A stretch of 64,000 bases of DNA, taken from contig CM120643.1 in assembly GCA_051362555.1 (NCBI GenBank), forward strand, positions 20,712,848-20,776,847, in the 5' to 3' direction. Below the pieces are notes generated by a model. It had not been told where the DNA came from and did not search any database. It worked only from the letters and a program-made list of their open reading frames with translations. Position 1 is the first letter of the stretch; the number at the start of each line of letters is the position of its first letter. Origin of the DNA: Lingula anatina (Eukaryota > Animalia > Brachiopoda). Both the position numbers and the translations under genes were made by a program. This document shows positions 1,971 to 63,685 of this stretch, one piece after another.

Positions 1971-2430
1971 TAAGATAAGATAAGAGTTTATTTAGCCAAT
2001 TATAAAAATCGGAAATCATTTTCCTTTTGGAGCAATATACAGAGTAAAATAATAAAATAATACAATAAATAAATTAATTAAGAATTTAGTTTTGAGATCA
2101 AATTAAAATGCGTCACTGCACTTGGATAAAAGATGTTTAAAAAGCGTTTACTGCCTTTAAAAGTTAAAAGTCTACTGTTGCTTGGTAAAAACGTAAAAAG
2201 AGATGATGCAGGATGGAAAGAGTCTTTCATGGTGTTGACAATTCTTTTCTGCACCCTGTCTTTAAAAGTATCATCCAGCTTGGGGAGATCCTGCCCGATA
2301 ATCCTGCTTGCAGTTTTCACGTTTGTTAATTTCTTCCTTTCCTCCCCAGCTGTTCCGCTATACCATATTATAATTCCGTACGCTAGAATGCTTTCAATTA
2401 CACACCTGTAAAAATTTACAGGTTTTTTTT
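1971..2430 (-). mobile_element. 5'-truncated non-LTR retrotransposon (Rex1/Babar-like LINE), ORF2 C-terminus plus 3' tail
   Basis: Minus ORF 2078-2449 contains FYRCVIESILAYGIIIWY...ASRIIG...HPASSLF..LPS..R...RF...FYPSAV, typical of the post-RT C-terminus of Rex1-type elements. On the minus strand it is followed by AATAAA (1987-1992) and a (TCTTA)n tail (1971-1985). Confidence 0.85.
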
Positions 2431-3045
2431 TCGTTTTAGAGAATAACAAAAGTAAATAGAGAAAAAATATGCCTTGGGCTCGTTACCATTGCCTATTGTA
2501 TACAAATACCATTTTTTGTTTATTAAATGATACGATATAGACTTACTGAAACCTTCATCTATCCGTCACACATTCTGTGGAACTATTCACTATCGCTTCG
2601 AAGGTTAATTTTAAAATCATTGATATTATTTTGTACTGTATAAATAAATGTCATCTTTCTGCCTGCTAATTCAATAAACATATAATCGATTCTACAGATA
2701 TCTTTTGTTTTTATCTTTAAGCATTGATAAATAATTTCTACGAGATAAACTAAGATGAAATAGTGTTTAAAGTAAATATTAATCATTTTGATATCTACAG
2801 TTTTCTGTTCTTTATTTAAACAAATCTGGCCGTGTTGGATCTGCTCTTTGCGAAAGGGTACACCTGCATTGGTGGTGGGCCTAAATTTTTTGTGGCCAGC
2901 ATTCGTTACTTCTCAATACTGGAAACGTCATAGGCCTGATTATTAAAAGGTCTATAGTGAGCGTTTCTTTAATTTTTAGCACATAACTAAGTTTTAGCCG
3001 AATATGGCGTAAAAGCATGATTATACCCGAACGCACTCTTGTGGG

Positions 3046-22860: not shown

Positions 22861-25274
22861 GGAATGTATTGTCCTATCAAAAACTACTTCGTGTATACAT
22901 GTATACATGTTATACATTAGTTTCGGAGACATGTGGTGGCCTAATATTGCAGTGACTGAAAAATAATTGAAAGATGTTGGCTTACATTAATTTCTTTCTA
23001 ATAATTGACATTTATGAATATTTTAATATCAAATTTTGGTATAAAAATATACACCTTAACTTAATTTTGCTCCATTATGACTACGTGTGTTAACAAAAAC
23101 ATATAACATAGAAATAGCCATCTCCCTTAAACCAGGTCCACCTACCCATATCGACATTGGCTACATTGTGCATTTGTTCATTAATAAATCTTTTGCATAA
23201 AATTGCCTGTGACCGGTCTGTATGCCGAAGACCGATATCTTCTGCTGTCCATGTATGGGGAATTACCTCAAAAAAGCAAGAATAATGTAACTTTTAGTGT
23301 TTCAAATTATTTATATGCCATTTTTGGTTCTAGCTTCCTTGTTGGGAAAATAATTATATACTTGAATTTCGTTATATGCTGACTTTTTGTTATTCGTTAA
23401 GAAAACCGATTTATGAAACGAGTTTCTTAAGCCGTTTTGTACTTTTTCAGATTCATTCACAAATCAAGGTGGTAGCCGAGCGTAATTTGAAATTGTCAAA
23501 TCAAATACATGCTATAATACAAAGCACCAATCTAATTTTAAAATACTGTTGTATCAGAAATAGATTTTGCAGATTTCGAGTGGACTAAAACTATCATGGC
23601 AACCACGTTTCCTAAAAAGGTGGTTAACATGTGTCATTAGTTTGCGAGATATATTTTTTCATTTTTCTCCTGATGCACTGTACAGTTTTTATATTGCTAT
23701 GTACTGAAACATATGTGCTAACACTAATGATGTGAAAGCCGGTCATGTTATGCAATTTTCCTGTCTGTCAGCTAGGGGACCTGTTGACAGGCCAATTACT
23801 GGAAGCCGGCAATCACCTGATCTTTGACAGGTAAATAGTTGTGTAAGTCCATATTTCATTTTTATGTTTATTTTGCCATGACATCTTGTCACTGCTCATT
23901 ACAACAATGCCTACATGGCTGCCGCAGCCTCCGATGCCCTGGCTTAGAACAGACAAAGGACAGAAAGGTGTGATCAGTTATATATAGCTACTTTATCTGC
24001 CCTTTGGAAAATCCATAGGTAGAACCTCATATTTTGGGCTCGAGCCTTTATAATTTCTATAACGCTTTCTATAAGCATTAGTATTTTAATTTAAAAATGT
24101 CAATTATTAGAAAAACAGACATTAAAGGACATACCCTATGGTTGGTCTTCTCAATTAAGTAGATATAAGATTTTGCCCGTTTCCATGGTAACGTGACCAC
24201 TTGGCAATGCTACATCATCTTCGAGGAGCAGATTCTGAGTTTTCAAATGATATATAATGTATGACTGTGTATGAAGGGAGACTAAATCTGCACATCTTTG
24301 CCATGTGCCGCTCACGAGGTAAAAAGGATGCGCGGCAAATGTCCTTTCCTCGTTGAACTATCAACACAAAAAATGCGTATCTCAAAGCATACCTTGATTG
24401 ACAGAATCATTCTACTTATGTTATTAAAATAATATAATATTTTTCTCGAACTTGTTCATACAATTCGCGTTTGAAAATATCCAAAAACCGTACTTTCTAT
24501 GTCTACAAACCCTGCCTTGCTATACTTGTCCTTCCTGATTTATACCATAAAAACAATAAGTCCCCTCAATTAAAAAGTACCTGATGTCGACATTTTCTTC
24601 CCAAACAACAGGAAGACACGGGGAAACATTTTGAACTAAATTTTTAATAAGAATAGTATTCAAGTCCTAGCGCAGGGACGGGTCGGGTAATGGTTATCGA
24701 ATAAGAATTTTTCTCATTTGTCAAGGGTAATTCGCTTTAGTGGGAATATTCTTGATATGATATCTTTGACATTGTGCACGAACCACATATTTTCAAATGA
24801 CAAATAAACAACAATATTTCAGTTAAAGTTCGATGACGTTTTAAAAGTATCATCTTTTATTTGGGCTAGTGTACAGACAAAAAGTGCTGTAATACAAAGA
24901 GTGCCAATGTGAATTTCTACTGCCTGCGAGAAGCACCATACTGTTGCAGCGTACCCTGTTCTTACCTATAAATAGAACCAACATCTTCAATTTTGTGTTC
25001 CTTGTAGTGTGTTTTTTTTTCTAATTCGGTGTGAAGTATACTTATTGGCCACTGGTAAACTGAAAAAAAAATTGTTCTTCGTGGAAAGTTCATGCACAGC
25101 TTTATCTAAAAAAATGGATGCTTACATAAAAGTCCCTGTCACATCCCTGTTCATCAGTTGAAGGATCTGAAATTACCAAAGACGTAGTCATTATATCAAT
25201 AATCAATAAGAAAACCAATGTAAATGTAATATACCATGCTAATCAGCCTTCTTTTTTAACATGTATATTACAGA

Positions 25275-26064: not shown

Positions 26065-29000
26065 ACTTATGGTGTCATTAACATATTTAAACTGGGTTTA
26101 GACATGTAAACTTTTATTGTTCCACGGACAGTTAATTTCAAAATATTAGTATGTCATCCAAAACAAGTGAAAATGGCTGTCGGGCTTCTTGAAAAGACTG
26201 TAAAATGACGATTACATAAAATAAATAAGATATTATCAACTGCTCATCATATTCTAACTGCCAAATAAATATGCACTGTTTAATTTATTATAATTTTTAT
26301 ATAATTATCATTATAATAATTATTATAATATAATATTATTATTATATTATAATATTATATTATAAGTAGAAGCCGTAGTAATAGTAGTAGTAGTAGTAGT
26401 ATTTACTTCAATTTATTTCATTTCTTTTTCTCTTTTTTCGTATGCAAAATCAATCACATCTTTGAATTTGCGAATAAGAAATGATCTATTTATGTCGTTC
26501 CTTGTTATTCTCTCTTTTCCCCTTCCCCGAACCACTTTTTTCTTTTCATACCACACTTCTGTTTGTGCAATTACTGAGATTGTACCAAGAAGCTATCGTC
26601 TTGTTCTCAGAAGTAAGAAATATACAATGACAGCGTTTAAAAATGAAGTAGAACTTTCTTTGTGCTATGACACTTTACGTAAAGAACCGGATTTTGATTT
26701 TATAAAGGTACTTGTTAGTGCACGTACCCTCATCAAAGGCGTGTTTTGTGTTTGAATTGTGCACAGATAATATTTATGTATAATATGTGGCTGGTGAACA
26801 GAAACGAACAAGAAAGACGATACGATAAAATAGCAAATGGAACATTTGTCTCCAAAATGTAATGATAGACCATAGTCTGTTAGGCCCTAATAAAACGGCA
26901 AAAACCATTTTGATATTGTAATTCATGCAGCCGAATCGATCTCGACTTCTCTAGAAAGCCGGGATCGAAATATTCTTACCGAAGCCAAGTTTTGCAGACA
27001 ACGTGAGAAAGAAGATCTTCAGTATCGCAGACGATCTGATCTGAAAGGAAGATAAAACGCGCTAAATGTGCAAATGTGTATCATGGAGACGCACGCAGGG
27101 AGAGTGTTCTGGCGAGCTTTCTCGGCCGAGCCGAGTATAGGTATCAGGGAGTCGACTGGCACTATATCAGTAGATATTAACCAAGCATTGATTGTTCGTG
27201 ACATTTTAATCGTTTTCAACACTCGGGTGAAGTCTGATTAAGTTCCCGCTCCCCAGATACACGGCAGACGATCATTTCATTGCTAAGGTGGATCATCACA
27301 GAAATTGCTTTCGATAAAATTGACACTGCGCAGCCGACCTCGGCTCGCCTATTAAGACGGGGATTGCACTTTACAAATCGTCGATTACAGTTTAAGCGAC
27401 TTGAGCTATAAATCTAAATGCCCATTTTGCGTTCCCCGATACCGCAAGGGGTTCATCATCTGGTCTTTGTAAGATATCAGCGTCAGGGCTGGCGTGGATG
27501 TTCACGTCACGATGTAACGATATGAAATTACCACATTATGACAACGGCGCTGGAAAAGTTGCCGTCGAGCCTCCACGGCCCATCATTCAAAATCGAATCC
27601 GATATTCCCTGTGCTGTGCGCAGACAGCGCTCTAGTCCAGTATTTGCTCAGTGTTTATTGCAAAACGGGCACCGAGTCTTTAATGAGAATTATTTGCGTT
27701 GGTTCCCACCGATAGTTCGTCATTCAGCGTCTCACCATCGGGCATTGTAGGGTTTTAATGATGTGAGTCATAATTACTCGATTGTCGGGTCAATTGCTGG
27801 CAGGAAATTGGCGAATTGACTGTGAACCTGAACACAGGGAGTTATCATATTTGCGCCACCGAAAAAAAAAAAAAAAAAAAAAAAGAGAGATTAGAAAAAT
27901 AAAAATAAAAAAGGCCCTATCATAATGTCTTCACAGTCAATGCTTATAGAGATTTATAACGCCCTCGGGTACAAACCGGGCACAACTAATGACACCCCAT
28001 TACCAGTTTGGTGGTCTATTCTTCTACTTCAACTGTGAGATTGTGAATTTAATTAAGCAATAGAAACGCTGCTCGCGTATTTCCTTACACCTTGAAATGT
28101 GCTACCGTTAGCCGATATGGCCGCAAGTATCATGTGACCGCATCATTGCATTTGATTGGCCGAAAAATCGCAAGGTGTGAAATCACGCTGTGATTGGGGA
28201 AGATTGTTTACCTTCGTGTTCTAAACAACCTGGGTCGACATTGTCCCGGCTGAAATTGAACAATCAATCATAGGACAGCATATCCTACAGGCTTTCTAGT
28301 CCCTGTACCATGCTTCCTCTAACCACGGACGCTTTGTTTAGTAAATCCTGATGAGTGTCAGCGGCGTCTCCCGTTTCTCCCACCTCTCACTCCCCGCAGT
28401 ACGCCATCTTCCCAGCCCAGCCCGCAAACAACGCCAGCTTTTACCGAACCTAAAACACCGTGGAGACTAAATTTCCTGCCTTTCATAGTCTCCATTCAGC
28501 CTCTTCTCAGCGCAGATCTTCTCATACGTAAACCGAGAATGAACTTTTCAAGTTAGTTGAAACGAAATTTTATTAAGTCACTTAGGCCCTACTAAGTTGC
28601 GTGATACAGCACCAAGAGACGTTTTTTACAGACTTTTCCTTCCGTTCATCGCGTACATCAAGTACCGAAACCAGGTAATAAATATGCACAAACTTGAAGA
28701 AAACTTGGCAGCGCGGCCCAATAATTTCTGCGGAGAAAAACACTTGCCAAATTCTGATACATCTTCTAAAGCAAGTTTATCTGCGTTCCCGTGATCTCTT
28801 AATCAAATCTTTCTTTTGGCGCCAGACGCTCGCATTTCTTACCAGGCTATTAACTGGTTTTAAGTGGATTTTTTGTGAAAACTTGGACTTTCTCCCGCCA
28901 TTTAACAACTTATCACGTATTTTATGCATCAAGCACTTGACGGGCGTCTTAAAGTAATACTGAAAGGTTTTAGGGGTTTCGTGTCCACCACCCAAATCTT

Positions 29001-36699: not shown

Positions 36700-39600
36700 C
36701 TAATCATCTTTGGCCTGAGAATCAGTTTCGTTGCTGCCTTGAAGGCCGGAATGTTTTGGCGAGTGTTCTCTGATGTTTTGGCGTGGCATCATGTAAGGTC
36801 TGTAGCGCATTGTATGTGCCACGTGAGCGCGCGTCCTATCGTCAGCCGGCGAAGTGCCCGGATATAGTGCCGGAAAGCATGTTCTGTAGCTATGATAAAA
36901 TAATGTCCAGGGGTCACTCAGTCCAGCTAGCCCAGCAGAGGACGCTGCAGCCGCCGCTAGCTGAGGCGAGTACATTGCTGCTGTCCCAAACTGAGCCGAT
37001 GGCAGCCGTAGTCCTAAGAAGTTTCCCCACAGTTTTGGATATAAATCTGTTAAGTACATCGCATTTGGCGCTGACGTCACGGGGAGCCCCTTGGATAGTG
37101 CGTCTGCTAAAAGTAAAACGAATAACAAAATATTCACAAAATATATCAATCAGAACTATTGTCTAATTTTTAAAATGCCGTCAGGGGAGGGGGGGCTTTA
37201 AATACAGTGCCTGCTGAAATAAACATAAAAGAAACACACGTAAACATGCACACATATCCAACCAGTTCCAAAATCTGTTGTCTTTTTTATTTCTGACTTA
37301 AGCGGCTTTAGTTATTTTAAAATATGAACATTATTTAGAAGTTCAAAGGAATACTTCAGAAATCTATTATTTTAAAATATACCCAATATAGATAATACAG
37401 CGTTTCGTTTGTCATGTTGGAATGAAACCTTGCTTATCATAACTATTCCATATCCCTAGCCTCTACAGTATTCAAGAGCATAAAGCATAAACTGCTAAAA
37501 AATACTTTCCAAAATGAAAAGAGTTATTATGCAAGAGTTTGGCAAGATAACACAACCATGTATGGCAACATAAACAGACATATCCTTTGAATATTTACAA
37601 GTTGTTTTCACTTATTAAACAGACATGTGGACGAAAGTTGGTTTTAGGGGCAGTGGCAGTTGGAAAGGACGGTACAATGGGCATGCTTCACCCTACGCCC
37701 CCTCTTTCTCTCTCCAATTAAAAACAATAAAATAAAAATGATAAAATAAAAATAAAAAACAGATAACAAACAAAACTAGGCAAAACCAAGCATTTTTCAT
37801 CCCCGAGCTGCGCTCGGCAAAGGTTTTTCTTTTATTTTATCCTGGGGCTTCCTACTTAGCAACATCCAAAATCTACCAGTGTAATTGTATTGTAATTAGG
37901 GCTGATGCAGATATTAATCAGACAGTCAATAAATCAATCAAATCTTATTTCTGCAAATTGAGCTTTTTCGTTTACCTCAGTGATAATGCACTGCTTGGAG
38001 GCAAGCAATGGTTTAAAAATTTGATGACAGTTAGACTTGACAGATTTCAAAGTTTCCTAACAGTTACTCGAATCCATTGATCTTACTAAGTTTTTTTTAG
38101 CCCATTTGTAACTGTTTAAGCCTAGTAAATGTTATATAAATTAAAGGGATAACAACTGTTCATTTTGGCAAATAAAGGGATTTTCCTCGGGTAAAGGACA
38201 ATTTTCCCATACTTATCAATGGTAAATGAACCCATTCCGACATTCAAAATTAGCCCCTGTTGTTTTTTTTAAGTTTGGTTTTTTGCAATATTCTCTTAAG
38301 AGATTATTACAGAGTGTAGCCATCAATGGAGTTCACGTGATCTGATGTCAAGCACAAATTCCAGAATAATTGCGATAAATGCCATTTTGGTAGTAAAATA
38401 GAACTTATTATATTGTTTACAGTATATTTATTGTGAAATATAAGTGTCATACAAACAGTTGTTATCCCTTTAATTTCACTTGAATATATTTTTTAAGTTT
38501 TCCTCAAAATGTATTCCTTATGTTAATTGAACTTGGGGGCATAACTTTCTTTTACAAATTAATGCACTAAAATAAATTATTCTGTAACACCAAATAAAAC
38601 AAAAATCCATATAACTTAAATCAAATTAAGTAAAATAACATAAGACACATATTGCGCTAACCAGACAGCACATAATTAACTTACGACATAAATAAATAAA
38701 GAAATAAATATATGAATATTTATTAAAACCACCAACTGGTACTTGATTAGATACATGTAAATGAATAACAAATAAAAACATTGGACCATAAATGAATAAT
38801 CCAAAGCTTTAATATAAAGAAGAAGAATAAAAGAAATAATTGATGAAAAATTGATAAAAGTTAGAAATATTGGATTAAATGATTACATATATAAGTAATA
38901 TACCTGGAGAAGGTAATTGTCCTACTCTCTCAGCCGTTCGGTAAGCATTCTCAAACTCTGTCTCTGTGTATGCTCTGAGGGGCGATCGTGCGTACGTGTG
39001 ATTCTGTATCATATTTTCCATACCGTCTCTACAAAAAGAAAAATTATATTTGATTCTTAAAGGCATGCTGCTAAACTATAGCTTTGTATATCTACTGCGT
39101 AAAAATTCTAACTTTTAAATTCAACTTCACATAGAGGGCAGAAGCAGCTGTATTACTGCTTTTATGTAACATCACTGAAATCGGACCGATGTTCTAAACT
39201 TATCAAAATTGACGGCACAAAGGACATATTTTGACACAACATACTTCAAACTACTCAGACTCTTTGCATATTCAAATATTAAGGTCGCTTCCACAAAAAT
39301 AAACCATTTAGTTAACCGTTGGCGCTACCTCGTAAAGGGTCTTTTTTGAAAGTTGTGTTTATTCTTACACTAGTAATCTATAGATACTTATCGCAAAGAC
39401 AGTTTTTCCTTTGAACTTTCCTTAAGATTTACAGTACTAGAAAACTATTCTAATTCACATAATCTGATAATGTTAATATATATCTAAATATAAAATCATA
39501 CAATGCAGAATCTTATGTATGGTTGCGCTGTTCAATCATTGCGTCATTACACAAATTATACCACAGAGCCAATGACACGCACTTTACTGGTCGGTGTAAT

Positions 39601-42600
39601 ATAAATATCTTTCATCGAAGTATCCTAACATGCTGTAAAACAGAATATCAAAACTAAGAAAACAGTTTTTTTTACGCATTAGTATCCTATATACCTCTCG
39701 GCTGTTCTATACATATACATGTCTAATTACTCCATCAAGATAAACCGTACGTCGTCACCGTGCCAGCAGTGGTACTCTGTTAGCGTTTCAGATCGAATTA
39801 AGGGTGTATGTTTTTGACGCTCTCCACATTGCTCGATGTCGAGACAAACGAAACTGATATCGTCCCTCATAAACAATATCATGTAACGCAAAACAACTGC
39901 TGGATAGAAAAAAATCGAGAACCTTGCTGAAAACTGTTCTGCTCTATAAATACCAAAGAATGAACAAAAACACCTATGGAATATTTCTTGAATTCGAGCT
40001 TAGCGAATCAAACGACCTTACCCCCCCTTTTTGTGAAAATCCCATCTGAACTTATTACTAGTCTTGTCATTCAAAAATTACCGACATTCTTTCTCGACTT
40101 CTTTTCAAGAATTTTTCCTCTTATTTTCAACAGTTTGATAAGCAATGTCGTTCTACGTCAAAACAACCCTTAATGGGGAATGTCCCGCTGTTTTTAAGCG
40201 ATACATATATATATTATGGATTACTATTATTATTATTATAGATATAATATAATATGGATTACTATCATTATTATGGATATAATATTGTTTAGATATGGTC
40301 AATAAAATACTGGTCATAAAAAATGTTCACGTACTGTTGGTGTCCTGAAGTAATGTGTCGAGCCAAGTGAAATATGCTGTGACATTCGGAGGAATCTGGA
40401 AAACTGGAGAGGAAATCCCCGGGGGAGACAACGTCAGTCAAATCGATGGAATAAATTGGGTGTCACTCAAACTATGGAATTGTTGAAAATGCATTACAAT
40501 AGTAGTCATACTGTTTTTTTTTGCTACTTCTAACAAAATGGCTAAAATAAGCCCAGATTTATTGGCAGTATAAATAAACATACAGAGACGTTGTTGAAAG
40601 TCGTGGGCTTACTTCGACCTTAACGTGATAGAATTTGCTGTTGAAAAAGGCACACAAGTCAGGTGATATCAAAATATCAAAAATGATTGACAGCAACCCG
40701 TTTAAACTAACACTACCTTTAAGTGTCTGCAACGCCCTTTACATACATTCCCATGTCCTACTGACAGAACACGTTTTACTAGAATGTTTAACACAAAGTT
40801 TTGCAAAAGAGGGTTATTTACTATTGAAATCAGACCATTTGCTCTTTGAATCGTAAAACCCAACATAAATGTTAACAGGGCGTTCCTACCATCAACTACA
40901 CTGATAATGTTTTTATTATTAGTAATAACGCCGTGATAATTAAACATAAATCGCCACCAACAATGGCGTATGCGACATAACCACCCTCTACCGTGTTAAC
41001 ATTGATCGGTTCGTTTAACAAGCTTCGCATTTATCAACCATTCATCAACGTTGCCAAGGTGTGTAGACGCTACTCGCAAACCCACACATTTAACTCTTTT
41101 TGTTATAATTCAATTTGAAGCATGACCAGCATTTTAATAGCGATTGTGATCTCGAAGGGAAGAGGGTCTAGAATAACATTTCCACATAATGAAGCCCTTG
41201 TTTGCTTTTAAATGACGTCAACATATTAACCGATCTTTAGATTTTGAAGTCGAGAAATTCAATAGTGGGGGTGCGTCACGTGATACGAACCTCTCTAGAT
41301 CAGTCAGTCTTGAAGAGTCGCGAAAACCTTTGGCAAAGGGGTTGCTTTCTATCTTGAGCTTTGTTATCTGTAAATTTTCGAGAAAAAATAAAGCAATTAA
41401 CATACATTGTATTGATAATTATAAATTATTGTGACATCCGTATCCTTAATTCTCGTATTTTCACTTAATTTTATCGATTTGCATAATATTGATTTTTGCA
41501 TAATAACGATGAAAGAAATATGCTTGCGATAAAAATTTTAATAATATTATTACTACAAACAGGGTATAAGAAGAAAGAAAAAAAAAACAAATAATTCAAT
41601 CAACAATGAATACATACAAAAGAATAACTGCATGAACAAACAGACGAAAAATTATGAAATACAAATATCTACAATATCTAGGGCGACATGCCAAGCATGG
41701 TAATAGTTAAATAATAATAATAAAATAATAATAATAATAATATCCTTGTTAAGGTTGGTGTTCAACTCACCAGTTGGTTCTGGTAAGCCGTCACTGCGAT
41801 AAACATAGTTTCCGGGAAGACGAATGTCCTGTGTTCCTCGTGGTCCAGACTTGTAATGTTGGTTGGCGTGGTATCTGCTAGCTTTACTAGGTGGATCCGG
41901 GGCTGGTACTTGTGCATAGAATTCAGCACGATCTGGAAAAAGAACATTAGCTGTAGGTTTTTGCTTAATTGTTTGCCTTGAGAGCGAAATCCCGATTTGA
42001 GAAAATATTTTCATTGGATCAGTACATAGTGATGGTGAGGAATAGTCATCAAAATTAGAAAAGAGTTAGACAAAACTGCCAATTACATAGATTCCCGAAA
42101 AGTATTAATCTAATTTCCATGAGTGTTCTTCAAGATATCCTCAGCGTTGGTTATCTTCAGCGTATCGAAGTGCAATCAGTGCATTTAGGCAATTGATCTC
42201 CTTTGTTTCCAACTTTCATTTTATTCTAATAACACGATAAAGAATTAATCTACCCACTTTGAAAAACTTGGCAACCCTGCAAAACTGAAAATAAGTGGTT
42301 TAGATTTCCTTAAGCATAAAACGCGTGGTTAAAAAAAAATATGAAATCGAGAAATCAAGAAAACCCCAGGACGGTGCATAGTTCTCTTCACGATGGGTGA
42401 AAAAAGATAATCTGATCTAATAGCCCATTTTACGGAAATTGAGAAATAGGTTGACATCACACCGATTTCCCTGCACGCAATTGAATTGTTAGACATTCTC
42501 AATAGTTTAATATGAATAAAACAGAATGATCTTGACGCATGATAATTGCATTCCAAACAAAAAGAATCATTTCAGAGTCTCCAATACTATATATTTATCA

Positions 42601-43848
42601 TCAACTTTTTTTTCAAAATCATTGAAGTTATGAAAATATTTCAGCCTAAGCTTGTTTGTTTAAAAACAAAAAAATTAAATAAAAATGTACCAAAACGACA
42701 CAAAACCAATTACATGAACATGACGTTTGCATAATAATATCTCCGGCGTGGGTTAATGCTGATGACTCTCCGTTTAATTTCAAAATTCGAAACTAAACTG
42801 AACGTACCATGTGTTATCTGACTATTTAAGAGTACATTCAAAGTGCATGTTTCTCCAGTTCCTGAGTAAGATATCCTTTGTAACAAATTACGGCAGGGTT
42901 GACCCATACGGCTTTCAATGGTATCAGTACTTAGTATTCTTTGCATTGTTAGCTGTTTTAATCATACAAATTAATTATATTGTCATGATGCCCTTTGTTC
43001 TCCTTATGAAAGAGTAATGGTAATGACACGTGGGATTTAAACAAACGAGTCGATGTTTAACATTAAACCCTTTTCGCATATTTAAAGAATTTAAAACATC
43101 AATTTAAAAAGAGGGTCTGAGTTAAGAAAATTTAGAAACATTAATGATTTTTCCTGATTTCACCCTTAAACTCGTTTGTCACCCGTGTCTTATTTTCATA
43201 TGAAATTCGAGATAACCTTTGATAAGTAATTTGGAAAGTGATTCTTAAGCCTGGTATTTCATCTCCCTCGTGTAACGCTAAGCTCATCTCATATTCTCAT
43301 CCCAAGTAATTCAAAAAAAGATTCGGATACGTCTAATCTCGGTTTATCACCCTCGCTTTCCCCTACTTTCCCAGAGACTTCAACAAAGCCCGCCGATTGA
43401 CAAGTAGGGGACAAGTGACGTGGAGCACGTGCGTGAAAGCGTCCGGCAGTGTTTCATAAACTCTGCACCATTAACTTACGACTCGCACTGACATGGTAAT
43501 AAGTGTAAACAATGCATCTTAGCAGCACAATTAACCAATGAAAGTACGGACGCCAGACATGTCAGTGAAGTGGTGTCCAGATGATCTTTTCTGAAATCCT
43601 TAAAGAGACATCCTGAAGTACCTTAGTAATGGATGCTTTGAAACTAAATAACGTCTTAGCCGTTTGGAAGGGAAAGCTACCTTCTAGATCTACATATGCC
43701 TACTGCTGACTGTTCTAATTATGTCTAGTTTTTATTGTATTTTTTTTCAAAGCGGAAATTAATTAATTTTTTTCCTGAAAAACAAAATGACTAATGATTT
43801 TTTTAATTCAAACTGTTTTCATGGTCGACGCTAAAATGATCTTTACCG

Positions 43849-43897
<49 letters not shown>

Positions 43898-46569
43898 GGG
43901 TCACTCACATGTCCAGTTTTGTCCATCATGTTATTGGTCAGTTTGACTTTCTCGAAGGACACGGTCTGTTTGTGTAACTGCTCCCCGGAGAACGTGGAGT
44001 CCGGGTGAACATGGAGCCGAGATGGAAGAGGAGGGTCAGCCTTCCCCGCTACCAACCACGAGGAGCGATGATAAGCGTAACGGTAGCGTTTGCCGTCAAC
44101 TGGTGTAACATCCATGAGGACGGCGTATTTAGCATCTGACTCCAGCCCACTGAACGACACTCGTAGGGTAGGAAACATACGCCTGCAATCAAAATTTTAA
44201 TTAAATACATTTTGTTCACTGTCCGAAGACAAAATAAAATAAGATGAAATAAATAAATAATTAATTAAATAAATAAATAAAAGAAAATAAGATTTTTTGA
44301 AAAAGGAAAAGTAATGAAAAAGAAGAGGAAGAAACTCCTATAATTGCTCTCAAGGATAAAGCAAGGATTGTGTATTACTGTAGAGTAATGAGGATAAAAG
44401 AATCGTGGGGTAAAGGGTAAACGTCATCAAATAATTATCTAGTTGTTCTGTTAACGTTTCTGCGTATCAAGGTAAATATTTGCTTGCGAACTGCCCTTTC
44501 GAAAATTCATACATGTGAAAGGTGGCGAGTGAACAACTTTGACCGAATAAAACTGAGATGATAACTGTCCACGTTATGTAAAGGGCGTTGCAGACACTTA
44601 AAGGTAGTGTGATGATAAAACTGAAATTGTTGACGAACCATACGTAGAAACCCATACTTTAGTTGTAGAAACTACCATATTTCTTTTTAAAATAAGGAAT
44701 AGAATTCTGCATTTTTCTTGAATCAGAGGGGTTAATTTTCAACTTAGTTTTTATTTCGAATGAACGGATTCTTGGGTACCTTTTTCAAACGGTGCACGTT
44801 ATTTAAAGTTATCTTGGAAATAAAGACAATAATTCTATATCATGACAGATCAGATCAACTTAAGCCAACATTTGTGTACGTCATTGTCAAGTTAAAGGTA
44901 TTTTAACTTTTATTCTCAGCACAAAAGAATTGTTCTCGAATATCCCGAACGTACAAAATAAGGGTATTTAAGGTAAGGAGGTGAGAAAAATCTAAATAAT
45001 GTGAACTCTATATCTGACTGCCTTTTCATACCTACGGGTAGAGAATTGTACTTGTATTTCAAGGCAACACAATCCTCAGAGAACTGAAAACTAAAAACAA
45101 CACAGATGTCTAATCCGAAAACTATGAATCTTGCACCCCCTCTCTCTCTCTCTCAGTCCGGATTTTCAGAATGGAGCTTTCTACGGAGACGCCGTCATGA
45201 AGAACGTATCATGTCAAACGCGACAAGAATATGCGTTTGCCATTAATAAGTACGAGAGAAAGGAGAACGTTCCTGTCTATTGTGAGTCGATAGCGATACG
45301 GTGACTTTACGCGGTGAATATCAATGAATGGGGAAATAAAGCCGTCCTCTTTAGTTGTAAACTTTGTAAAATATTGAATGAATGGAGGACAACGTCGTCA
45401 AGCGGAATGGGGGTGCGTTCTAGAACAAATATGGCCGCCCTCGCCACGCGCTCTTACGGCTTGTTACCAGCGATGTTACACAATTAATGAGTTTGTATTT
45501 TTTTAGCGTCTTTTCCTCACCTAAACCGTCCAAATCTCTACACACAGATGCTCAAACTTCCGATGCAGAGTGCTAAAAATATGAGCGAGTCTCCCTGATC
45601 GTAACAGCATTCCCCCACACGTAACCTGCCGGGAGAACTGGCAAGACATAACAAACACGTGTGTTTAGCTTTCATATAGGTGTTGATGGAGGGTAAAAAT
45701 TCACAAAAACTTCTCCAAAAATTTGCAAACATTTCCCCTTCCCCTTACGAACGCCGGTAACCAGCCCGCTAACAAGCATCTTACACAAACCCTCGGCATT
45801 CTGCAATGTCAATATTTAAGAGAAGGACATTTATCGATCTGGGTTTTAAATTAAAAGGTTTGAAAACTTGAACAGACGGCAAGGTTGTGTTTTCTTTCCA
45901 ATTGGCTTTTGACACTTGCCAGACCTAAGCAGCACCACGGCTGTTTACCGCACTAAAAATGTTATGTTTGTGCTTTTGGGGGTTATTAGGAGATCGTATT
46001 ACCACCCCAAATTCAGCAAGAGTAGTGAAATTGCAGCCTCGCAGATTTTACCCTTGATTTATGGAAAATATACTTTTTTAATTTTCATAAATAGCGCCAT
46101 AATCAAAACATCAATCCAGATCAACCAAATCGGTTTACGTAATTAAGCATTAAATTAGAGTAATAAATTATTAACATGCCGTTGTTAACATTGAAAAATG
46201 GTGAAAATTGACAAGCTTTTAAGTGAAAGTTATCCAAAGCGTGTTATCGCCGAGGCACATTGGGAAAAATAACAGAGAACTGGATTATTTCGAGGCAAGC
46301 AGTACCCAGAAAGTTAGAAGCATTAAGTGTTCGTAAGTCCCCATTACCTCCGTGTGCGAAAAGAATCCTTCAACCAAACGCCACTCGAACTAATCACGAA
46401 GGTGTGAGCTCCAACGAGTTTAAATAACCAAGGTTTGAAAATTTATCTTTCAGTTTTTTTTTCAAACCAACCAAAGTTCTCTTAAACAAACTTGGTATTT
46501 CACTGACTGTTAATCGGTCGATAAACCTGTATCATAATCATCAACAAAACAAAACATGCTCATCCAACA

Positions 46570-47239: not shown

Positions 47240-50200
47240 GATATTTTACAGGCACCATTTATCTCACCTTCCAGATTTAGTAATGATCATCTCTGTCCCC
47301 AGTTCGTGAAATTTCGCCCACAAATCTTTCGTTTCCAGACGACAGTGCACTCCGGCCAGCGTCTCACTCCCGCTGACCAGTGGCTTAGTGGACTTACTGT
47401 CCGGTGCGTTCCGTGACTTCCCAGTTTTCTCTGTGCTCACCACTGTTTTGAAGGCGCTGTCGGACTTAGATGGGCTGGTGTCGGCTTTTGTTAGCTCCGC
47501 TGACGAACTTGTGGTGAAGCCGTTTGCATTGTGGGCAAGTCTCTCTGGAAAAAGGAAAAAAAGAGAATTATTGCTTCTTGAAGTAGCCGGAAATTTCTCT
47601 TTTGTTTGCCAATATTTTTCAAAAATTATAATAAGAATGAAATGGTGTTCGTATGTAACAATATATTATAATAAGCATTGGATTATAAAACAATATTTTG
47701 AACTACGGTATGCAATACTTGCATAAAAGAGTCAAAACTGTATTTCCACCTTGGTTCAAATAAAATTGTGCAAATGATTCGTTGAATAAAATTTCTTTAC
47801 CGACTCCACTCACAGAGTCCAATTCCAGATGAATGTTTGTTTTTATTCTGATCACGTTTTATTATTCACAAAAAGGTGCCGATATTCTCATTTTGATGAA
47901 ATCCTTATCAAGTAAGTAATTGGTCTTTACCAGATTTCGCAATGCCTTGTTTTAACTAATAACCCTAAAAGTCTGCTGAGATCCATTTAAACTCGTTCTC
48001 TTGGGCAATGTATCATTTGTTGACCAACAGATACTTAACAAAAATAACCAAGCGCCCTAGGCCATGCAGAACGCCGAGTTAATGATGCATGACTTTAGTC
48101 GATCACGAAGTTACTGTTACAGTAAGTGTGAGGCAAGGAATCGCTAAAGTTACTATCGCTGACGACGTCGTGATTTGGCATCAAAGGTCGCCCACGCCAT
48201 TATGACAGTGACACGAAACACTTCTATTGCCACTATTTGTCACAACCGGTGATACGCTTTTATCATGCTTATTGTAAAATACATTATTCTAATTTCCTTT
48301 TTAAGATTCAATTGTTGAACATGTTGTCTTTTTGAGGCTTCCCCGTCGCTTGTCTTTAATGTGTTGTAACTGCTTTGGCGTCTAATGATCAACCATCATT
48401 TGAAGACACACAGTTACAACAAAATGCCGTTTTTTTCTCCAAATTACTATCTTCAAAGACAACGGTAGTCTTAGCAGCGTTGAAGGGATTTAACTCGTAC
48501 GGTTTTGAACACAGTCATACTGTCGTTTGTTGACAATTAGTTGACAAACTAAGGAAAAGTGCGGTGTAAGATTTTTGAAGTAAATTGTTTTATCATCAAA
48601 GCCAGAAGAGCCCGGAAGAAAGAAAGAACGAAAGGAAAGAGCAGTGATAGATTTTAAAGGAAACTGTAATCATCAAAGTCAGAAGAGCCCCGTGAAATGC
48701 TACTGCAAAAGTGAGTTAAATGACAAGATATCCAAATATTACAGTCATCAGTCCACGCCCTCGTGTTCTTTTATCAATAAAAGTTCACAATCAATAAAAG
48801 TGTCTTTTTTGAATTCCTTTCTAAGCCTATAGCTAACAAATAATGCTATCAATTATTAATGAACTTGGAAAATATATCAAAGCGTATAGCTATAGCATTA
48901 TAGATATGCTATCAAAATTAAATAAAATTTGAAAATATTTGGAAACGAATAACCTGACTGATACAGTATCTCATACAGAATCAAACTAATTTTAATACAA
49001 AGATGACATAATGAAATTCAGAAACGCTTAGTTATGCCAAACGGTATATAAAAAATGAGTAGGGTTATAGCAGCAGGGCTTAAATTGGAATTATGAAATC
49101 TGTTTCTCTATTTACTTAAATATATTTGAAATTACCTTTTAACAAATTCGTTTATCATCTTATTATTTTGTCGAAACATGTCTCCAAAATAATGATTAAA
49201 ATCACCACTGCCTGAAAATACTGACAATATCAACACCTAATTTATAAGACTGACTTGGAAAAAATGGCTCAGACAATTAAGTTTATATAATCGCATTAAT
49301 CAAGGAAAAATGTGATTAGCAAATATTTATTCCCCATTTACGTGACTAATTATTGCTTGAAAATGGTAATTTATCCTAATTATTCAGCCCTTTATATTAC
49401 TGCTAAATGTTCGGCTTTTACATCAGGTTTTACGGCGGCAGTGGACGACTGAAAAAAAAATCACAAACACACGCACACGCACGCCAGAAAAACTGTTTTT
49501 CAAAATGATACATAATTTCTTCGTATCTGGGCATTTTCTGTTTTAAAAGGGTTTCTTCGACTCTAAATACATTTGCAAAGAAGACCTCATGTCGCCGTAG
49601 CAGTGACAAATAGACTATAGCAGAAACATTTTTTTATTATTTAATCTGGGATGGCTGTTTGTGTTTCAGCGGTTGGTAGCAGAAGGTGTTACAACTCCTT
49701 CAACGGCCGAGTTTGCGGAACCCCAGCCCATCAAGCTTGGTGTACATTTGTATGACATGCCACAAGGTGTTTTGTATCTCGCATAGGAGTTCTTGTCGTA
49801 GTTTTTAACCAATGTAAAGTTCGTTTTTCTTCACAACCTACCACAGGCGTACATACCGTCAAATAACACTTGACTGAACTGCATCATAGTTATCCAGCCA
49901 AAGAGGACTTCTTTTTAGAATTATCGCTCAAACCAGGAGTAAATGCATTTCATCCAAATTCTGGGCATTAAGAAAAGTATTGTGGTTTTAGAAGATGTTC
50001 AGCTTGGTCCTGTCTTGTCTTGTCAGCACGTGACGTTAAATGTCGTCTGCTGTCATCATGATGTCATCTGTTTTCAGCGTTCTGTCACTTTGGCGTCCAT
50101 TAGATAAGTTTGGGCGTGAAGAAACTCGCTGAACTAGAGAGTTTTAGATGGAAAGACGTTGTCGTTTGTTGTTACTTTGATTTGTAAACATTTCTCAAAC

Positions 50201-52728
50201 TCATGACAAAATGCGCAATTTTGCCAGTTTAAGTCAGCAATGGCCGTCATGAATTTGTTGTTTATAGATAAGAGGACATGAACCGTGCTTTCATTTATTT
50301 TTCTTAGTCATCACTGGCAACCTGATTAAACCAGCTCCTTCGTTCAAAAAAGTCCAACAAAACACGGTCTATTACATCGATTAAACATAAGATCCAGGAA
50401 AAATTTTAAGTGATATTTGATTGAATGTATACAGTTAAGTTTTCAGTCGACATCTCTCAATTTTCCACTTTCGCCCAGACTACACAAACAATGGAGACCC
50501 AGAGCACTTTCCTACAAAATATCTTCCATCTGACTAATTGTCCTGCAATGTGATGTTTGACACCCAATACTGGCGAAAAGATATTGAGATTAACACGGTG
50601 TAAGGGCTCCCTGACATAACAGAGGCAATGACAAGAAAATTACAACTTTGAAAATTGAAGTTACATCACAAAAATTGTGAAACGCTTAACGCATAAAGCC
50701 GCTTTTCGACACATGAATGACCAAGGAGATCATTTGCTTTCATCTATTTCAATTCTTCTGTTCGTCATAATCACAAGGTCTGCATTGGGGTACCGACAAA
50801 ACCGACAGATTTTCCCGAAAATTGACACCGGTAATAATAACTTAGTTGAATTTCTTAAATCCAACGGAGTATTGAGGGGGAATAAAGTGGTTGATACCTG
50901 CCGTGAAGCGATGAAAGGTCATTCAATGCCTTGAAGTCGGTTACAAATAATTCAAGTTAAAGACGCACAGAATCAGAAGTCCTGAGAATCAAAACGCTAT
51001 ATTTTTTTCATCGGGTATTTGTAGAATTTTCAAATTGATGCCATTGTTTCGCTATGAATGTATAGCGTGTTGATTTTATTTTTACATTTTCGGTGTCAAG
51101 AGAGATAGCCTCATCGTTTTTATGAGATATCATTCCCCACCGCCTCCTGAATTGCCATTTAACTGGCCGACTAATGCCATTCATTACCTCCAATAAAATT
51201 TTCATTGTACAAATATGATTGCTTGTTTCGAGTGTTTATACTTATTGCCAAAGAAAGGGTGAAAATTAAATCTTCGCTAATATAATTTGTATTGATCAAA
51301 ATGGTAAACGGCCTTTGTACGTTTCAGAGTTTCGAGTTGAGTTTCCTCGCCTCCCTGACTTAGTAGACTGATATGGGGCTTGATTAGCAAAAATACAACA
51401 CCTAGAACTGTTGCCGAGATATAAGATTTCAGTGTTGGTGTTGAAATAAGTCTGCCAACAACAGAACGCGGTTTAAAGTAAACCGCAAAATGGGGATAAA
51501 AAACCTAAAATGTTATTGGAAATTGTCTCAGGTTTCTATAGTCTACCGGGGTAATAACGAAGTTATAGTAAATTCTCTAATGTGACATGCTGAATATGAG
51601 AATGGTTAGGGCGGTAAGCAATGGAACATCTTTCTTATTATCAGCAGGAATTTGTTTTCATTCAAAATACCTTAAAAGCAATTATATTACTGCAATTATA
51701 CAGTATAGTCTACAACTAGTTTTTAGACGGTGGTTTGGTTTTTAATAAATAACTATCATTCCATAACTTGAATTGGACTTATTTATATTTATGAATAATG
51801 ATATTTTATTTAATGTAAATATGGTCCATTTGTGTAACTTTTAATTGTCAACAGTATTACACGTGACTGCTACATACCCGGGCATCGCGTCTTATTTGTA
51901 CAAAATGCTTTTTTTACTTTATTTGTGTTAGTAAACTTCTTGAAAATATTTACCATCGCACTTAGTCAGTTGTCTACATTTTCTCACGTAAAATAAACTC
52001 CTTTTTGTACTGCTTCAAGACGTTGCAAAGATATACTGGATTTGTGCCTCAACTTTTAACCCGGGACTTAAAATGTGCATGTATATTTTCAGTGTAATTC
52101 CAGTTCGAATACTATTTATCTTGAAAAATACAAGTATTCATTTTTCCTCCATGGGTTCTCTTTAACCCCGACTTTAACTGTAAGATATCACGCTCTGCCT
52201 CCCTGACATTAAGATAATATTAAATCAACAAGAATAACAAGGACATCTTACATAGCCTTTACAGCAAATCTAGAATAATTTTTTCCAAAATAATGGTCTT
52301 GTTCTCAAGCAAGGCATTCAACCACATCGGAATTAAATGGTTAAAAAATATTTGACACTTAAACTACTGGGGAAATATTTATAATAAATCCAGAAATACA
52401 TGTTTGTAACGACACACATGTAACAGTGATTGCAATTGGTTTTACAGTTTTTAAGGACACCTGCATATAACTAAGTACATGTACACCGCGACTTACCGAG
52501 TGACGAAATGGAGCATACATCAATGTTAGCGTTGTCATCATCCTCGTCATCATCAACCATGGCCATGTCATCGTCCTTGTGCTCCTCACTGTCACTACTG
52601 CTACTGTTACTGTTATTGTTACCCATGATTGCGTCTATCGTGAACGCCGAAGGTCTCTTAAAGCTCGTTGGTATAGGAATAGGTTTAACAGCGACGCAGA
52701 GGACATCTTTAACACCTAACTCCTCCAT
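36700..52728 (-). CDS. TBX20: T-box transcription factor Tbx20 (H15/midline family), ~517 aa
   Basis: Exons (minus): 52497-52728, 47268-47544, 43909-44182, 41771-41932, 41291-41367, 38904-39028, 36700-37106 (1554 nt, frame continuous). N-terminal eh1 motif FTIDAIM. T-box: [28 protein letters not shown]...[21 protein letters not shown]...[12 protein letters not shown]...[30 protein letters not shown]. Also the Tbx20-typical HTYARSPLR and a C-terminal RYRPY. Confidence 0.96.
38145..38469. mobile_element. Non-autonomous MITE with TTAA target duplication (Kolobok-like) in Tbx20 intron 6
   Basis: 16-bp perfect TIRs AGGGATAACAACTGTT (38145-38160) and AACAGTTGTTATCCCT (38454-38469), flanked by TTAA at 38141-38144 and 38470-38473. 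No coding capacity. Confidence 0.8.
40710..44610. repeat. Perfect 36-bp inverted repeat pair (40710-40745 and 44575-44610) in Tbx20 introns 5 and 2
   Basis: ACACTACCTTTAAGTGTCTGCAACGCCCTTTACATA and its exact reverse complement. It also shows up as the shared peptide [12 protein letters not shown] in two opposite-strand spurious ORFs. Confidence 0.95.
43852..43896. repeat. (AG)n microsatellite just inside Tbx20 intron 3
   Basis: Directly visible, about 12 nt from the exon 3 donor. Confidence 0.9.
46567..46624. repeat. Compound (CA)n(GA)n microsatellite
   Basis: Directly visible. Confidence 0.9.
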
Positions 52729-54580
52729 GGTGTTGCGAGCTAGTGAATATAATACACTGACGAGCGTGTGTTGTATTGTGCGCTGTTCGCCACACCTCCT
52801 TTAGATTGATATCCAAGTTTCCTCAGCGCAGTGAGAAAGAGAGTGAGTGAGAGAGACCCGCGCTTTGTTTACTCCGCAATCGTCGATGAAATTGGTAACG
52901 ACTGCTTAGCTTTCAAGTTATCGATCCTTTTTTTACTCGCAGTTAGAATTTTTACACTCAAGTCCCTTGGCTGGTGAAACCGCTGTCTCTTGCTAACTTG
53001 CATTCAAATCCCCAAATCTCTAATCAATTTCAACTCTCGGCGATGCGCGACGGTATTTCTGTACTACACCGTTCCCCCATGTGATTTCTCTACCGATCAA
53101 GCTCCATACTTAAATGGGCTGTGTACTACTTTGGCGAGTTGGGTGATGCGGAGCCAAATCTCGCGTCCAGATCACGCGTCCGAATGACATGGGGCTCAGA
53201 CCTCCAACGCTGTTCCGATTAAAGAGGGCGGGCCAAGCGGGCCTGGAGGCGAACGCGGTGGATAAGATGCCAATTAATTGGTCGTGTCAGTTTAATCGTT
53301 TTCAACAGATGAGTGAAGTTGATTAAGTCTCTGTTCCCCAGACGCTGGTAAACGATTCTTTGATTGCCACTGTAATTCTGCTTTAACTTGTCATGAAAAT
53401 TGCCTTGGACAGAGTGCAGGGCCGCGCGGGACCTAAGAACGCTAGAAACGGGTTGGAAACTGGGTGTTTTTTGTCGATCACTACTCAAGATATTCCCTCC
53501 CTCGCTCTGGTTACAATACTCTCTTTACTGCTGTAGTAAAACGAACGGTCCTTAATAGCCATGACCACTTTTGGGAAACTATTTTAACCAATTAGCTTAA
53601 TTGGACAAGACAATGTTAGTTTTTCACGAAAATTCAGCACCAGAGCAATGATGCAGAAAGCTGAAGATATAAGACGCCGCGTTGCAAAGTGAGGAGAGCG
53701 CACTAAGGCACCATTTCCAGCATTTGAGGTATGGAGTGAAGACGCTGAGCTCGTATTTTGGCAGGAATTGCTGATGATAGTCTTACTAAGTGCAGTTAGT
53801 GCCTTAATCGATCTTAGAAAACTTTTTCTGTAACGCGATTTAAAATGCGAACTTGGAAGAGTTACCGCGGGTGACTGAGAGCCAGTCGACAAATGTCTCG
53901 GGTTACTCACGCGCCGAACTTAAGCAAGTGTTAATTCGTTTAATTGTTTATTTTGGCACTTTGCGATTTCAAACTTTCATCGACGGGCTATTAAGCGGCG
54001 TCTGGAGTTGTGGTCTCGGGAGAAAATATCCGTGAAGCACGGTAATGCACCAAGACTGCGGCCCACTGCGTCTGTTTGTTTAGTGATAACCGATCAGTTT
54101 AATAGATCGCTTGCGATCGTGTTGGCAGAGGAGGCAATGAAAGTAGACGCCGCGTACTACACAACGCGAAACAGATTTACGTTTCTTCTAGCTCCCCGAA
54201 CATGCACACGCTACCCAAGCCTACAATACACTTCTCTCGCTCGCTCACTCGCTCGCTGTCTCTCTCACTCTTCTTCTGTGTGAAGGTATCTAATTAACTG
54301 TCCCCTTCATTACGAAATGGGGCTCTATTTCAATGAATGGGACACCGATGCTCATTGAATAGACGGTGTGTAGTGTGTCGCTTACTTTTCAATTTCCTCA
54401 CAGAATGGAACTTTTGTAGCCGTAGTTATCAAACTGTCACCGCGCGATATTATGCAGCTACGAAGTCATCACAGTCCTTGCTTAGACCTGGCTTTTATCA
54501 GCGCGGGGGACGCTGCCACACCCCCTATTAACGCACAGGATTTGTGAATGTCCCTGTCTTTGACAAGTTGATAAATACTC
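52729..54580 (-). promoter_or_regulatory. Putative Tbx20 5'UTR, promoter and proximal regulatory region
   Basis: Directly upstream of the Tbx20 ATG and visibly richer in GC/CpG than the surroundings. Contains CCAAT/TAAT words, e.g. the palindrome CCAATTAATTGG near 53271. The TSS cannot be determined from sequence. Confidence 0.5.
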
Positions 54581-63309: not shown

Positions 63310-63685
63310 CTGAAAAGATAAAGGGATATTTCTGAGTAATGGAATGAAATATGCATGGGTGATATTTCAGCCCACAGCCTTCAAATCAAAAATAATTCCA
63401 TGTAAATCATGTGATGTGATCTGGTGGCAATCTACATTTGATTGCAGCACAACACATATAAAGCAAACTAATCAGACTTCAAGAAACAATATTCAAACAA
63501 AAAAAGTAAAAAAAAAAAAAATTGCTCAGAGAGCAAATATACTCATAAACTATAAGAGTAGATCTAACAAAAATTAACATCTAATTACAAGACAATCATA
63601 GTTTAATAGTAGAAATGTTTAGATGTAATGTACATAATAACACGCCCTCCATCAGCACTGAAGTCTGATTGCTGTTACATACACC

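What the first reader, a model, noticed from the sequence alone, without database searches (positions are those of the whole stretch)
40710..44610. Perfect intronic inverted repeat brackets a frame-symmetric T-box exon cassette of Tbx20: candidate circRNA or T-box-less isoform switch
Seen: a 36/36-bp reverse-complement pair lies ~390 nt before the exon 3 acceptor (44575-44610) and ~545 nt after the exon 5 donor (40710-40745), with unrelated flanks. The enclosed exons 3+4+5 total 274+162+77 = 513 nt (171 codons) and both flanking introns are phase 2. Skipping them joins exon 2 to exon 6 in frame (..SG-R-DGME..), giving a protein with eh1 and the C-terminus but lacking most of the T-box. Back-splicing exon 5 to exon 3 gives a 513-nt circle with an in-frame junction (GAG AG|G CGT ATG) and no stop codon. 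Known: complementary intronic sequences promote back-splicing and exon looping. Inference: this pair could regulate Tbx20 output. Alternative: the arms begin CACTA and may be ends of two decayed MITEs (weak partner-like sequence near 40868-40883 and 44440-44466). No TSD surrounds the pair, and 36 bp is short compared with typical circRNA-promoting repeats.
Basis: partly seen in the sequence, partly recalled or inferred. Interest (0 to 1): 0.8.

Follow-up and report, generated by a model that had tools for sequence, protein, structure and literature searches.

The report
Inverted repair copy around Tbx20 exons
In the lamp shell Lingula, a 36-base stretch in one intron of the developmental gene Tbx20 has an exact reverse copy in another intron 3.9 kb away, most likely a harmless, fairly recent DNA-repair scar; it could fold the RNA around three exons, but that is untested.

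Summary
The 36/36-bp inverted pair, exon sizes, phases and stop-free circle are real. In a second sample's contig graph the 36-mer joins only these two loci, and one arm-B haplotype carries an uncompensated mismatch. There is no target-site duplication, partner end or transposase, so the MITE/CACTA alternative fails. Arm B sits between a 10-bp direct repeat with flank-like filler, as break-repair insertions do. Frame symmetry is ancestral: 76 of 80 other animal Tbx20 loci share the upstream phase-2 intron and 17 of 21 the downstream one, none of those 17 with a complementary match over 12 nt. Short local inverted pairs are common: 4 in this window, and in 21 of the 80 loci. Best reading: a young repair-mediated duplication that happens to bracket exons 3-5. 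Arms this long can drive back-splicing elsewhere, so incidental circles or skipping are possible, but the two RNA runs gave no reads and the point is untested. Low interest.

The parts
44575..44610 (.). Arm B, in Tbx20 intron 2, 392 nt before the exon 3 acceptor; probable acceptor (inserted) copy
   Evidence: both haplotype-like contig paths of run X7 carry it with the same flanks, one with 1 mismatch
40710..40745 (.). Arm A, in the intron between exon 5 and alternative exon 5b; probable donor copy
   Evidence: present in run X7 joined to its inner flank
44547..44556 (.). 10-bp direct repeat, left copy, flanking arm B
   Evidence: 31 of 3000 random sites have a flanking exact repeat of 10 or more
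44557..44574 (.). 18-nt filler whose first 11 nt resemble the flank at 44611-44623 (locally templated, inferred)
44615..44624 (.). 10-bp direct repeat, right copy, flanking arm B
40688..40709 (.). Imperfect direct repeat (18 of 22) abutting arm A; partner at 40762-40781
   Evidence: null fraction 0.0135; extension to a longer old tandem unit not significant (0.12)
52497..52728 (-). Tbx20 coding exon 1 (holds the eh1-like motif; motif name recalled)
47268..47544 (-). Tbx20 exon 2 (start of the T-box, Pfam PF00907 positions 2-25); phase-2 donor
43909..44182 (-). Tbx20 exon 3, 274 nt (PF00907 positions 27-114)
41771..41932 (-). Tbx20 exon 4, 162 nt (PF00907 positions 116-164)
41291..41367 (-). 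Tbx20 exon 5, 77 nt; phase-2 donor
40335..40403 (-).
38904..39028 (-). Tbx20 exon 6
36700..37106 (-). Tbx20 last coding exon (a second acceptor 3 nt inside would give RefSeq X2)

Best explanation
The two arms are most likely the donor and the copy of one fairly recent DNA-repair event, in which 36 bases of one Tbx20 intron were probably copied in reverse into a break in another intron 3.9 kb away, and their bracketing of a frame-symmetric exon block is likely coincidence. Shown: an exact pair with unrelated flanks, only two loci in a second sample's contig graph, no transposon hallmarks, and intron phases shared with distant animals. Inferred: a resected end at about 44560-44615 primed on the nearby opposite strand, copied about 36 nt, switched back to its own flank (18-nt filler, 10-bp direct repeat) and rejoined, as in SDSA or polymerase-theta repair. 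Arm B as the acceptor is also inferred. The event would be older than the split of the three arm-B haplotypes seen and young enough that the arms differ by under about 8%. The pre-mRNA could pair across the arms and leak a few circles or skipped transcripts as a by-product; this is untested.
For: run X7 (a different sample: 8 substitutions and 1 indel in a 693-nt contig): the 36-mer is its own 36-nt record of depth 120, with two exits, the arm-A inner flank (75.1) and the arm-B inner flank (44.4), and no foreign flank among the 7 records laid. A further 197-nt record (depth 50.7) is arm B with both its flanks and 1 mismatch; no matching change in arm A was listed. One difference in 108 arm sites fits the flanking intron rate of about 1.4% (P = 0.57). 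The spacing is under 5 kb, where 824 of 1,136 human two-copy insertions lie, with filler, microhomology or TSD at their breakpoints (PMC2671141). Arm B has a flanking 10-bp repeat and filler. No TSD, whereas a Tc1 element in the same window shows its TA TSD. Phases are ancestral: 76 of 80 and 17 of 21 loci. Base rate: 4 complex inverted pairs of 18 nt or more within 5 kb in this window, one of them wholly inside the last Tbx20 intron; 21 of 80 other loci have such a pair. Of 17 of those pairs checked, 5 enclose exons and none encloses exons 3-5. A random 3.9-kb intron-to-intron span over this gene encloses a symmetric block 9% of the time.
Against: No empty, pre-insertion allele was seen, so the insertion and its direction are inferred. 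Arm A also has a flanking imperfect direct repeat (null fraction 0.0135), which the simple model does not need; both flank tests were chosen after looking. Contig depth is not a copy number, a filter drops records (the contig for arm A's outer flank is missing in X7), and diverged copies could be missed. Only one other sample was informative, with little power to detect selection on 36 nt. The pair is the only complex match over 13 nt between any two different Tbx20 introns, and it is well placed (392 and 545 nt from the splice sites). The 17 comparison loci are distant and mostly have incomplete downstream introns.
Confidence: 0.68

Rival explanations
1. Selected RNA switch: the arms pair in the pre-mRNA and regulate Tbx20 by making a 513-nt circle and/or a T-box-less 346/369-aa isoform that keeps the N-terminal repressor motif.
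For: Duplex of -64.5 kcal/mol. Both products are in frame. Precedents: 36- and 40-nt arms suffice in a minigene (PMC4201285 section 7); a 13-nt match drives both back-splicing and skipping in C. elegans zip-2 (PMC8330042 passages). The arms are not a high-copy repeat and are present in a second sample.
Against: Uncompensated mismatch in one arm-B haplotype. Symmetry is ancestral. No match over 12 nt between the same two introns in 17 of 17 distant loci (distant and partly incomplete). The 3 of 4 RefSeq-cluster isoforms read all contain exons 3-5, and no separately clustered 284-905-aa protein with this N-terminus was found (weak).
Confidence: 0.07
2. Incidental match: a repair scar as in the best explanation, but the duplex does raise back-splicing or skipping of exons 3-5 to a detectable low level, with no selected role. 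This is compatible with the best explanation.
For: The same geometry and precedents.
Against: The minigene results used miniature introns; here the arms are 3.9 kb apart and compete with normal splicing of introns 3 and 4 (inference).
Confidence: 0.15
3. Transposon remnants: the arms are terminal repeats of one element, or solo ends of a low-copy family, possibly kept identical by gene conversion.
For: The arm starts with CACTA at its second base. Both arms have some flanking direct repeat. A true Tc1 element produces a similar 31-bp pair in this window.
Against: No TSD of 2-12 bp at four trims. The enclosed DNA is the gene's only, collinear exons 3-5, with no long extra ORF (longest stop-free stretches 72 and 137 codons; the 137 overlaps exon 4). 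Partner ends are at chance level. Only two hits in the window with up to 3 mismatches. No third flank in run X7.
Confidence: 0.12
4. Assembly artefact.
For: None beyond the perfect identity.
Against: Contigs of a different sample reproduce both arms with their own flanks.
Confidence: 0.01

Closest known systems
Repair-mediated duplications (RDs), Pace, Sen, Batzer, Feschotte 2009, PMC2671141 (seen: parts 1-2 of 8 and passages)
   Same: Two-copy, non-tandem duplication under 5 kb apart; filler and a TSD-like repeat at one copy; no poly(A); the paper gives one intronic example in opposite orientation (ACSBG2)
   Different: That survey was of vertebrates and required 50 bp or more and an interrupted transposon as marker; here 36 bp (58 with filler) in a brachiopod, with no empty site seen
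'Doublets', short paired duplications, Thomas et al. 2004 PNAS (paper not seen; only its description in PMC2671141; size range and strand bias recalled)
   Same: Short exact two-copy match a few kb apart with unrelated flanks, proposed to come from imperfect break repair
   Different: Recalled as mostly same-strand in mammals; the non-coding local pairs in this window are all inverted
SD-MMEJ / polymerase-theta templated insertions (review PMC7407515, passages seen)
   Same: Insertion with short repeat motifs copied from the flanks, possibly several template switches; acts in invertebrate germ lines
   Different: The passages seen describe templates near the break; here the main template is 3.9 kb away
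Reverse-complementary matches that promote back-splicing and exon skipping: ZKSCAN1 minigene (PMC4201285, abstract and section 7) and C. elegans zip-2 (PMC8330042, passages)
   Same: Short perfect intronic complement on either side of an exon block, within a few hundred nt of the splice sites
   Different: Those have demonstrated circles or skipped transcripts and deletion tests, and zip-2's match is conserved in five species; none of this is shown here

Membership tests
Repair-mediated duplication / doublet | Sequence present at only two loci | tested here: met
   graph of run X7: only arm-A and arm-B flanks among 7 records, depths additive (75.1 + 44.4 vs 120). Limited to near-exact copies in one sample; no assembly was available for a direct count
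Repair-mediated duplication / doublet | Donor within 5 kb, not tandem | tested here: met
   3,829 nt between the 45-nt extended arms
Repair-mediated duplication / doublet | Breakpoint signs (filler, microhomology, deletion, TSD) and no poly(A) | tested here: inconclusive
   10-bp direct repeat and 18-nt filler at arm B (null about 1%, post hoc); arm A also has a decayed repeat
Repair-mediated duplication / doublet | Empty pre-insertion site in an allele or relative | tested here: inconclusive
   Both arm-B paths in X7 carry the arm; run X8 gave no laid contig
Repair-mediated duplication / doublet | 50 bp or more (cut-off of the Pace et al. pipeline, not of the mechanism) | tested here: not met
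   36 bp copied; 58 bp between the direct repeats. It is therefore filed as a doublet-sized case, not as an RD by that paper's filter
RCM-driven circRNA / exon skipping | Complementary match of 30-40 nt or more in the flanking introns | tested here: met
RCM-driven circRNA / exon skipping | Back-splice junction (exon 5 to exon 3) in RNA | tested here: inconclusive
   0 reads of any kind on 40290-41530 in two RNA runs: no test
RCM-driven circRNA / exon skipping | Skip junction (exon 2 to exon 5b or 6) in RNA | tested here: inconclusive
   Only the exon 5b acceptor lay in the stretch laid, and it had no reads; annotated isoforms read lack the skip
RCM-driven circRNA / exon skipping | Conservation or compensatory change in the arms | tested here: inconclusive
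   One uncompensated mismatch; no match in 17 distant loci; no close relative available
RCM-driven circRNA / exon skipping | Loss of product on arm deletion, rescue on compensation | not testable with these tools
   Needs a minigene
TIR transposon (CACTA, Tc1/mariner, MITE) | Target-site duplication around the TIR pair | tested here: not met
   the Tc1 control in the window gives TA
TIR transposon (CACTA, Tc1/mariner, MITE) | Dispersed family with further copies of the terminus | tested here: not met
   (near-exact copies only)
TIR transposon (CACTA, Tc1/mariner, MITE) | Transposase remnant inside, or a nearby partner end for each arm | tested here: not met

The most novel reading that the evidence does not exclude
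A single repair accident created a new complementary intron pair that now loops out most of the T-box. It yields a T-box-less Tbx20 that keeps its N-terminal repressor motif and C-terminus, and a 513-nt circle with an endless T-box-fragment frame, at levels that differ between perfect and mismatched haplotypes. That would be a splicing switch caught at birth in a core developmental gene, with a natural allelic test.
Probability: 0.08. Interest if true: 0.7.

Novelty: new member of a known kind. Interest (0 to 1): 0.2.

Why it matters
As it stands it is an ordinary example of a known mutational scar, here in a brachiopod. It also shows that frame symmetry and an endless circle ORF say little about function when the intron phases are ancestral. 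It would matter if junction reads appeared. Unique, non-transposon complementary pairs born by repair would then be a route to new circles and domain-less transcription-factor isoforms, and the segregating mismatch would allow an allele-specific test.

Tried and rejected
RNA: no RNA holder was listed by the run search. Two of the nine raw-read RNA runs (X15, X12; about 6 in 100 of each read) gave 0 reads on 40290-41530: no test of expression, back-splicing or skipping. Reads were laid only on that stretch, so exons 2, 3, 4 and 6 and arm B's own site were not covered directly. No whole genome is held for this window, so no direct genome-wide count was possible.

Foreign source of the 36-mer: 0 exact matches of a 24-mer in viral and metagenome contigs. 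No meaningful Rfam match in the gene (1 hit, E 0.64, far below its gathering score). MITE partner ends and an old tandem unit at arm A were not significant. A polymorphic inversion between the arms was considered: it would invert exons 3-5, the mismatched X7 haplotype shows the normal order, and perfect-arm paths cannot show it.

Literature: 0 papers for circTBX20, circ-TBX20, 'TBX20 circular RNA' or 'circular TBX20'. 0 papers held 4 of 5 Tbx20/skipping terms. 3 papers held Lingula + circular RNA and 4 held Tbx20 + brachiopod, none on this by title (listings only). 46 papers hold Tbx20 + circRNA; 15 were listed, none by title on a Tbx20 circle. Subscription papers and supplements (for example circRNA catalogues) were not searched. 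In one search the exon 5b border was one base off; it was corrected, with no change in length or phase.
Full report
Observation. The arms 40710-40745 and 44575-44610 are exact reverse complements and the longest complex exact repeat in the window. A 20-mer from the arm occurs only at these two places, allowing 3 mismatches. Chance expectation is about 4e-12 under base composition, and the flanks are unrelated.

The gene. Exon 3 matches Pfam T-box and is 99% identical to Lingula anatina TBX20 (XP_013390981-3). The spliced model equals the 540-aa and 517-aa RefSeq proteins except for one V/I difference. The 3 of 4 cluster members read all contain exons 3-5. A search with the N-terminal 140 residues among proteins of 284-905 aa returned only that cluster; this is weak evidence.

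Copy number and variation. No assembly was available, so contigs of another sample were used (run X7; 7 records laid on 40290-41530). The 36-mer is a separate 36-nt record of depth 120. It exits into a 693-nt record that continues along arm A's inner flank (75.1) and a 154-nt record whose loose end is arm B's inner flank (44.4). One listed entry carries arm B's outer flank (46.8). A 197-nt record (50.7) holds arm B with both flanks and one mismatch. I infer that the exact 36-mer exists at two loci only and that one arm-B haplotype is imperfect; no change in arm A was listed. Caveats: depth is not a copy number, the record for arm A's outer flank is missing (a filter drops records), and diverged copies may be missed. 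One difference in 108 arm sites is what the flanking intron rate (8 in 587, 1.4%) predicts (P = 0.57). A 36/36 match bounds arm divergence at under about 8%. This excludes an assembly artefact and a young high-copy family, and shows no sign of constraint, though power is low.

Transposon ends. No TSD of 2-12 bp at four trims; the same test finds TA at a Tc1/mariner element in this window (transposase remnant). The enclosed DNA is the gene's single collinear set of exons. Rejected.

Scar anatomy. Arm B lies in a 58-nt stretch between two copies of an exact 10-mer (44547-44556 and 44615-44624): 18 nt of filler that begins with a near copy of the right flank, the arm, and 4 nt. Of 3000 random sites, 31 have a flanking exact repeat this long. 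Arm A abuts an imperfect 18-of-22 direct repeat (null 0.0135). Both tests were chosen after looking. Flank-templated filler with short repeats is the described signature of SD-MMEJ (PMC7407515, passages). Two-copy insertions with the donor under 5 kb away and filler, microhomology or TSD at the breakpoints are the repair-mediated duplications of PMC2671141 (parts 1-2 of 8 and passages), which links them to the 'doublets' of Thomas et al. 2004 (not seen). The crisper scar at B suggests B is the copy; without an empty allele this is inference, and the repeat at A is unexplained.

Is the frame symmetry a sign of design? One search fetched 80 Tbx20 loci of other animals from metagenome contigs (the best 80 of 242 confirmed; 73-85% identity in exon 3; some redundant). 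In 76 of 80, exon 3 begins at the same phase-2 acceptor (4 have no intron there). Of the 21 that reach the end of exon 5, 17 have the same phase-2 donor. The symmetric block is therefore ancestral. In those 17 loci (15 distinct) the longest complex complement between the two flanking introns was under 11 nt in 14, 11 nt in 2 and 12 nt in 1. The upstream intron was complete in 11 and the downstream one bounded by exon 6 in only 2, so this is limited. In the Lingula gene 5 of 21 internal exon blocks are symmetric, and a random 3.9-kb intron-to-intron span encloses an exon 89% and a symmetric block 9% of the time. The endless circle ORF is a consequence of symmetry, not separate evidence.

Base rate. 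The window has 4 complex perfect inverted pairs of 18 nt or more within 5 kb: this one, the Tc1 ends, a 23-mer pair inside the last Tbx20 intron that encloses no exon, and a 19-mer pair. 21 of the 80 other loci have such a pair. Of 17 pairs from 16 of those loci, 5 enclose exons (exons 2-5, 5, 4-5, 2, 4) and none encloses exons 3-5.

Could it still act on RNA? Yes in principle. The duplex is -64.5 kcal/mol and is the only complex match over 13 nt between two different introns of the gene. In a ZKSCAN1 minigene 36- and 40-nt arms sufficed (PMC4201285, abstract and section 7), and a conserved 13-nt match drives both back-splicing and skipping in C. elegans zip-2 (PMC8330042, passages). The direct test is open, because the RNA runs laid had no reads on this stretch. 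No report of a Tbx20 circle was found in the held library (listings only).

Verdict. Observation confirmed. Most likely (0.68) a young, neutral repair-mediated inverted duplication that happens to bracket an ancestral frame-symmetric block. Incidental low-level circles or skipping 0.15 (compatible with the former), transposon remnants 0.12, a selected switch 0.07. Earlier scan notes on similar cases in other genomes agree, but they are unchecked and are not counted as support; the repair reading was already noted and tied to the RD paper. New member of a known kind; interest 0.2.

Noticed in passing
window 18674-20063: Tc1/mariner element, about 1.39 kb, with 29-bp perfect terminal repeats, TA target duplication and a broken transposase (HTH_Tnp_Tc3_2), inserted inside a coding exon of a pentraxin-domain gene (exons near 18326-18673, 20062 onward and 20438-20701); perfect ends suggest a recent, possibly polymorphic gene-disrupting insertion.
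   Followed up: partly
window 40335-40403: 69-nt alternative Tbx20 exon 5b right after the T-box. Other species' Tbx20 proteins (P0005, P0007, P0009, P0021) also carry short Ser-initial insertions at this junction, suggesting a long-standing site of alternative splicing.
   Followed up: partly
window 38138-38160 / 38454-38476 and 22995-23013 / 24095-24113: Further perfect inverted pairs (23 and 19 bp, 0.3 and 1.1 kb apart) with unrelated flanks. All non-coding local pairs of 18 nt or more in the window are inverted, which may point to an inverted bias of short duplications in Lingula.
   Followed up: partly
window 41380-41478: In run X7 a second contig with 6 differences covers this part of intron 4 and then leaves the window sequence: an allele with an indel, or a dispersed repeat fragment.
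   Followed up: no
window 60958-63380: C2H2 zinc-finger array gene(s) on the minus strand upstream of Tbx20.
   Followed up: no
window 27187-27283 / 53273-53367: 97-bp direct repeat, 77% identical, 26 kb apart, one copy about 550 nt upstream of the Tbx20 start codon.
   Followed up: no
L003 6105-6127 / 9846-9868; L048 3053 / 5246: Inverted pairs (23 and 74 bp) bracketing Tbx20 exons 2-5 and exon 5 in other animals' loci.
   Followed up: partly
window 2078-2482 (minus strand): 134-codon open frame that looks by eye like a non-LTR retroelement remnant (recalled resemblance; no Pfam hit).
   Followed up: no
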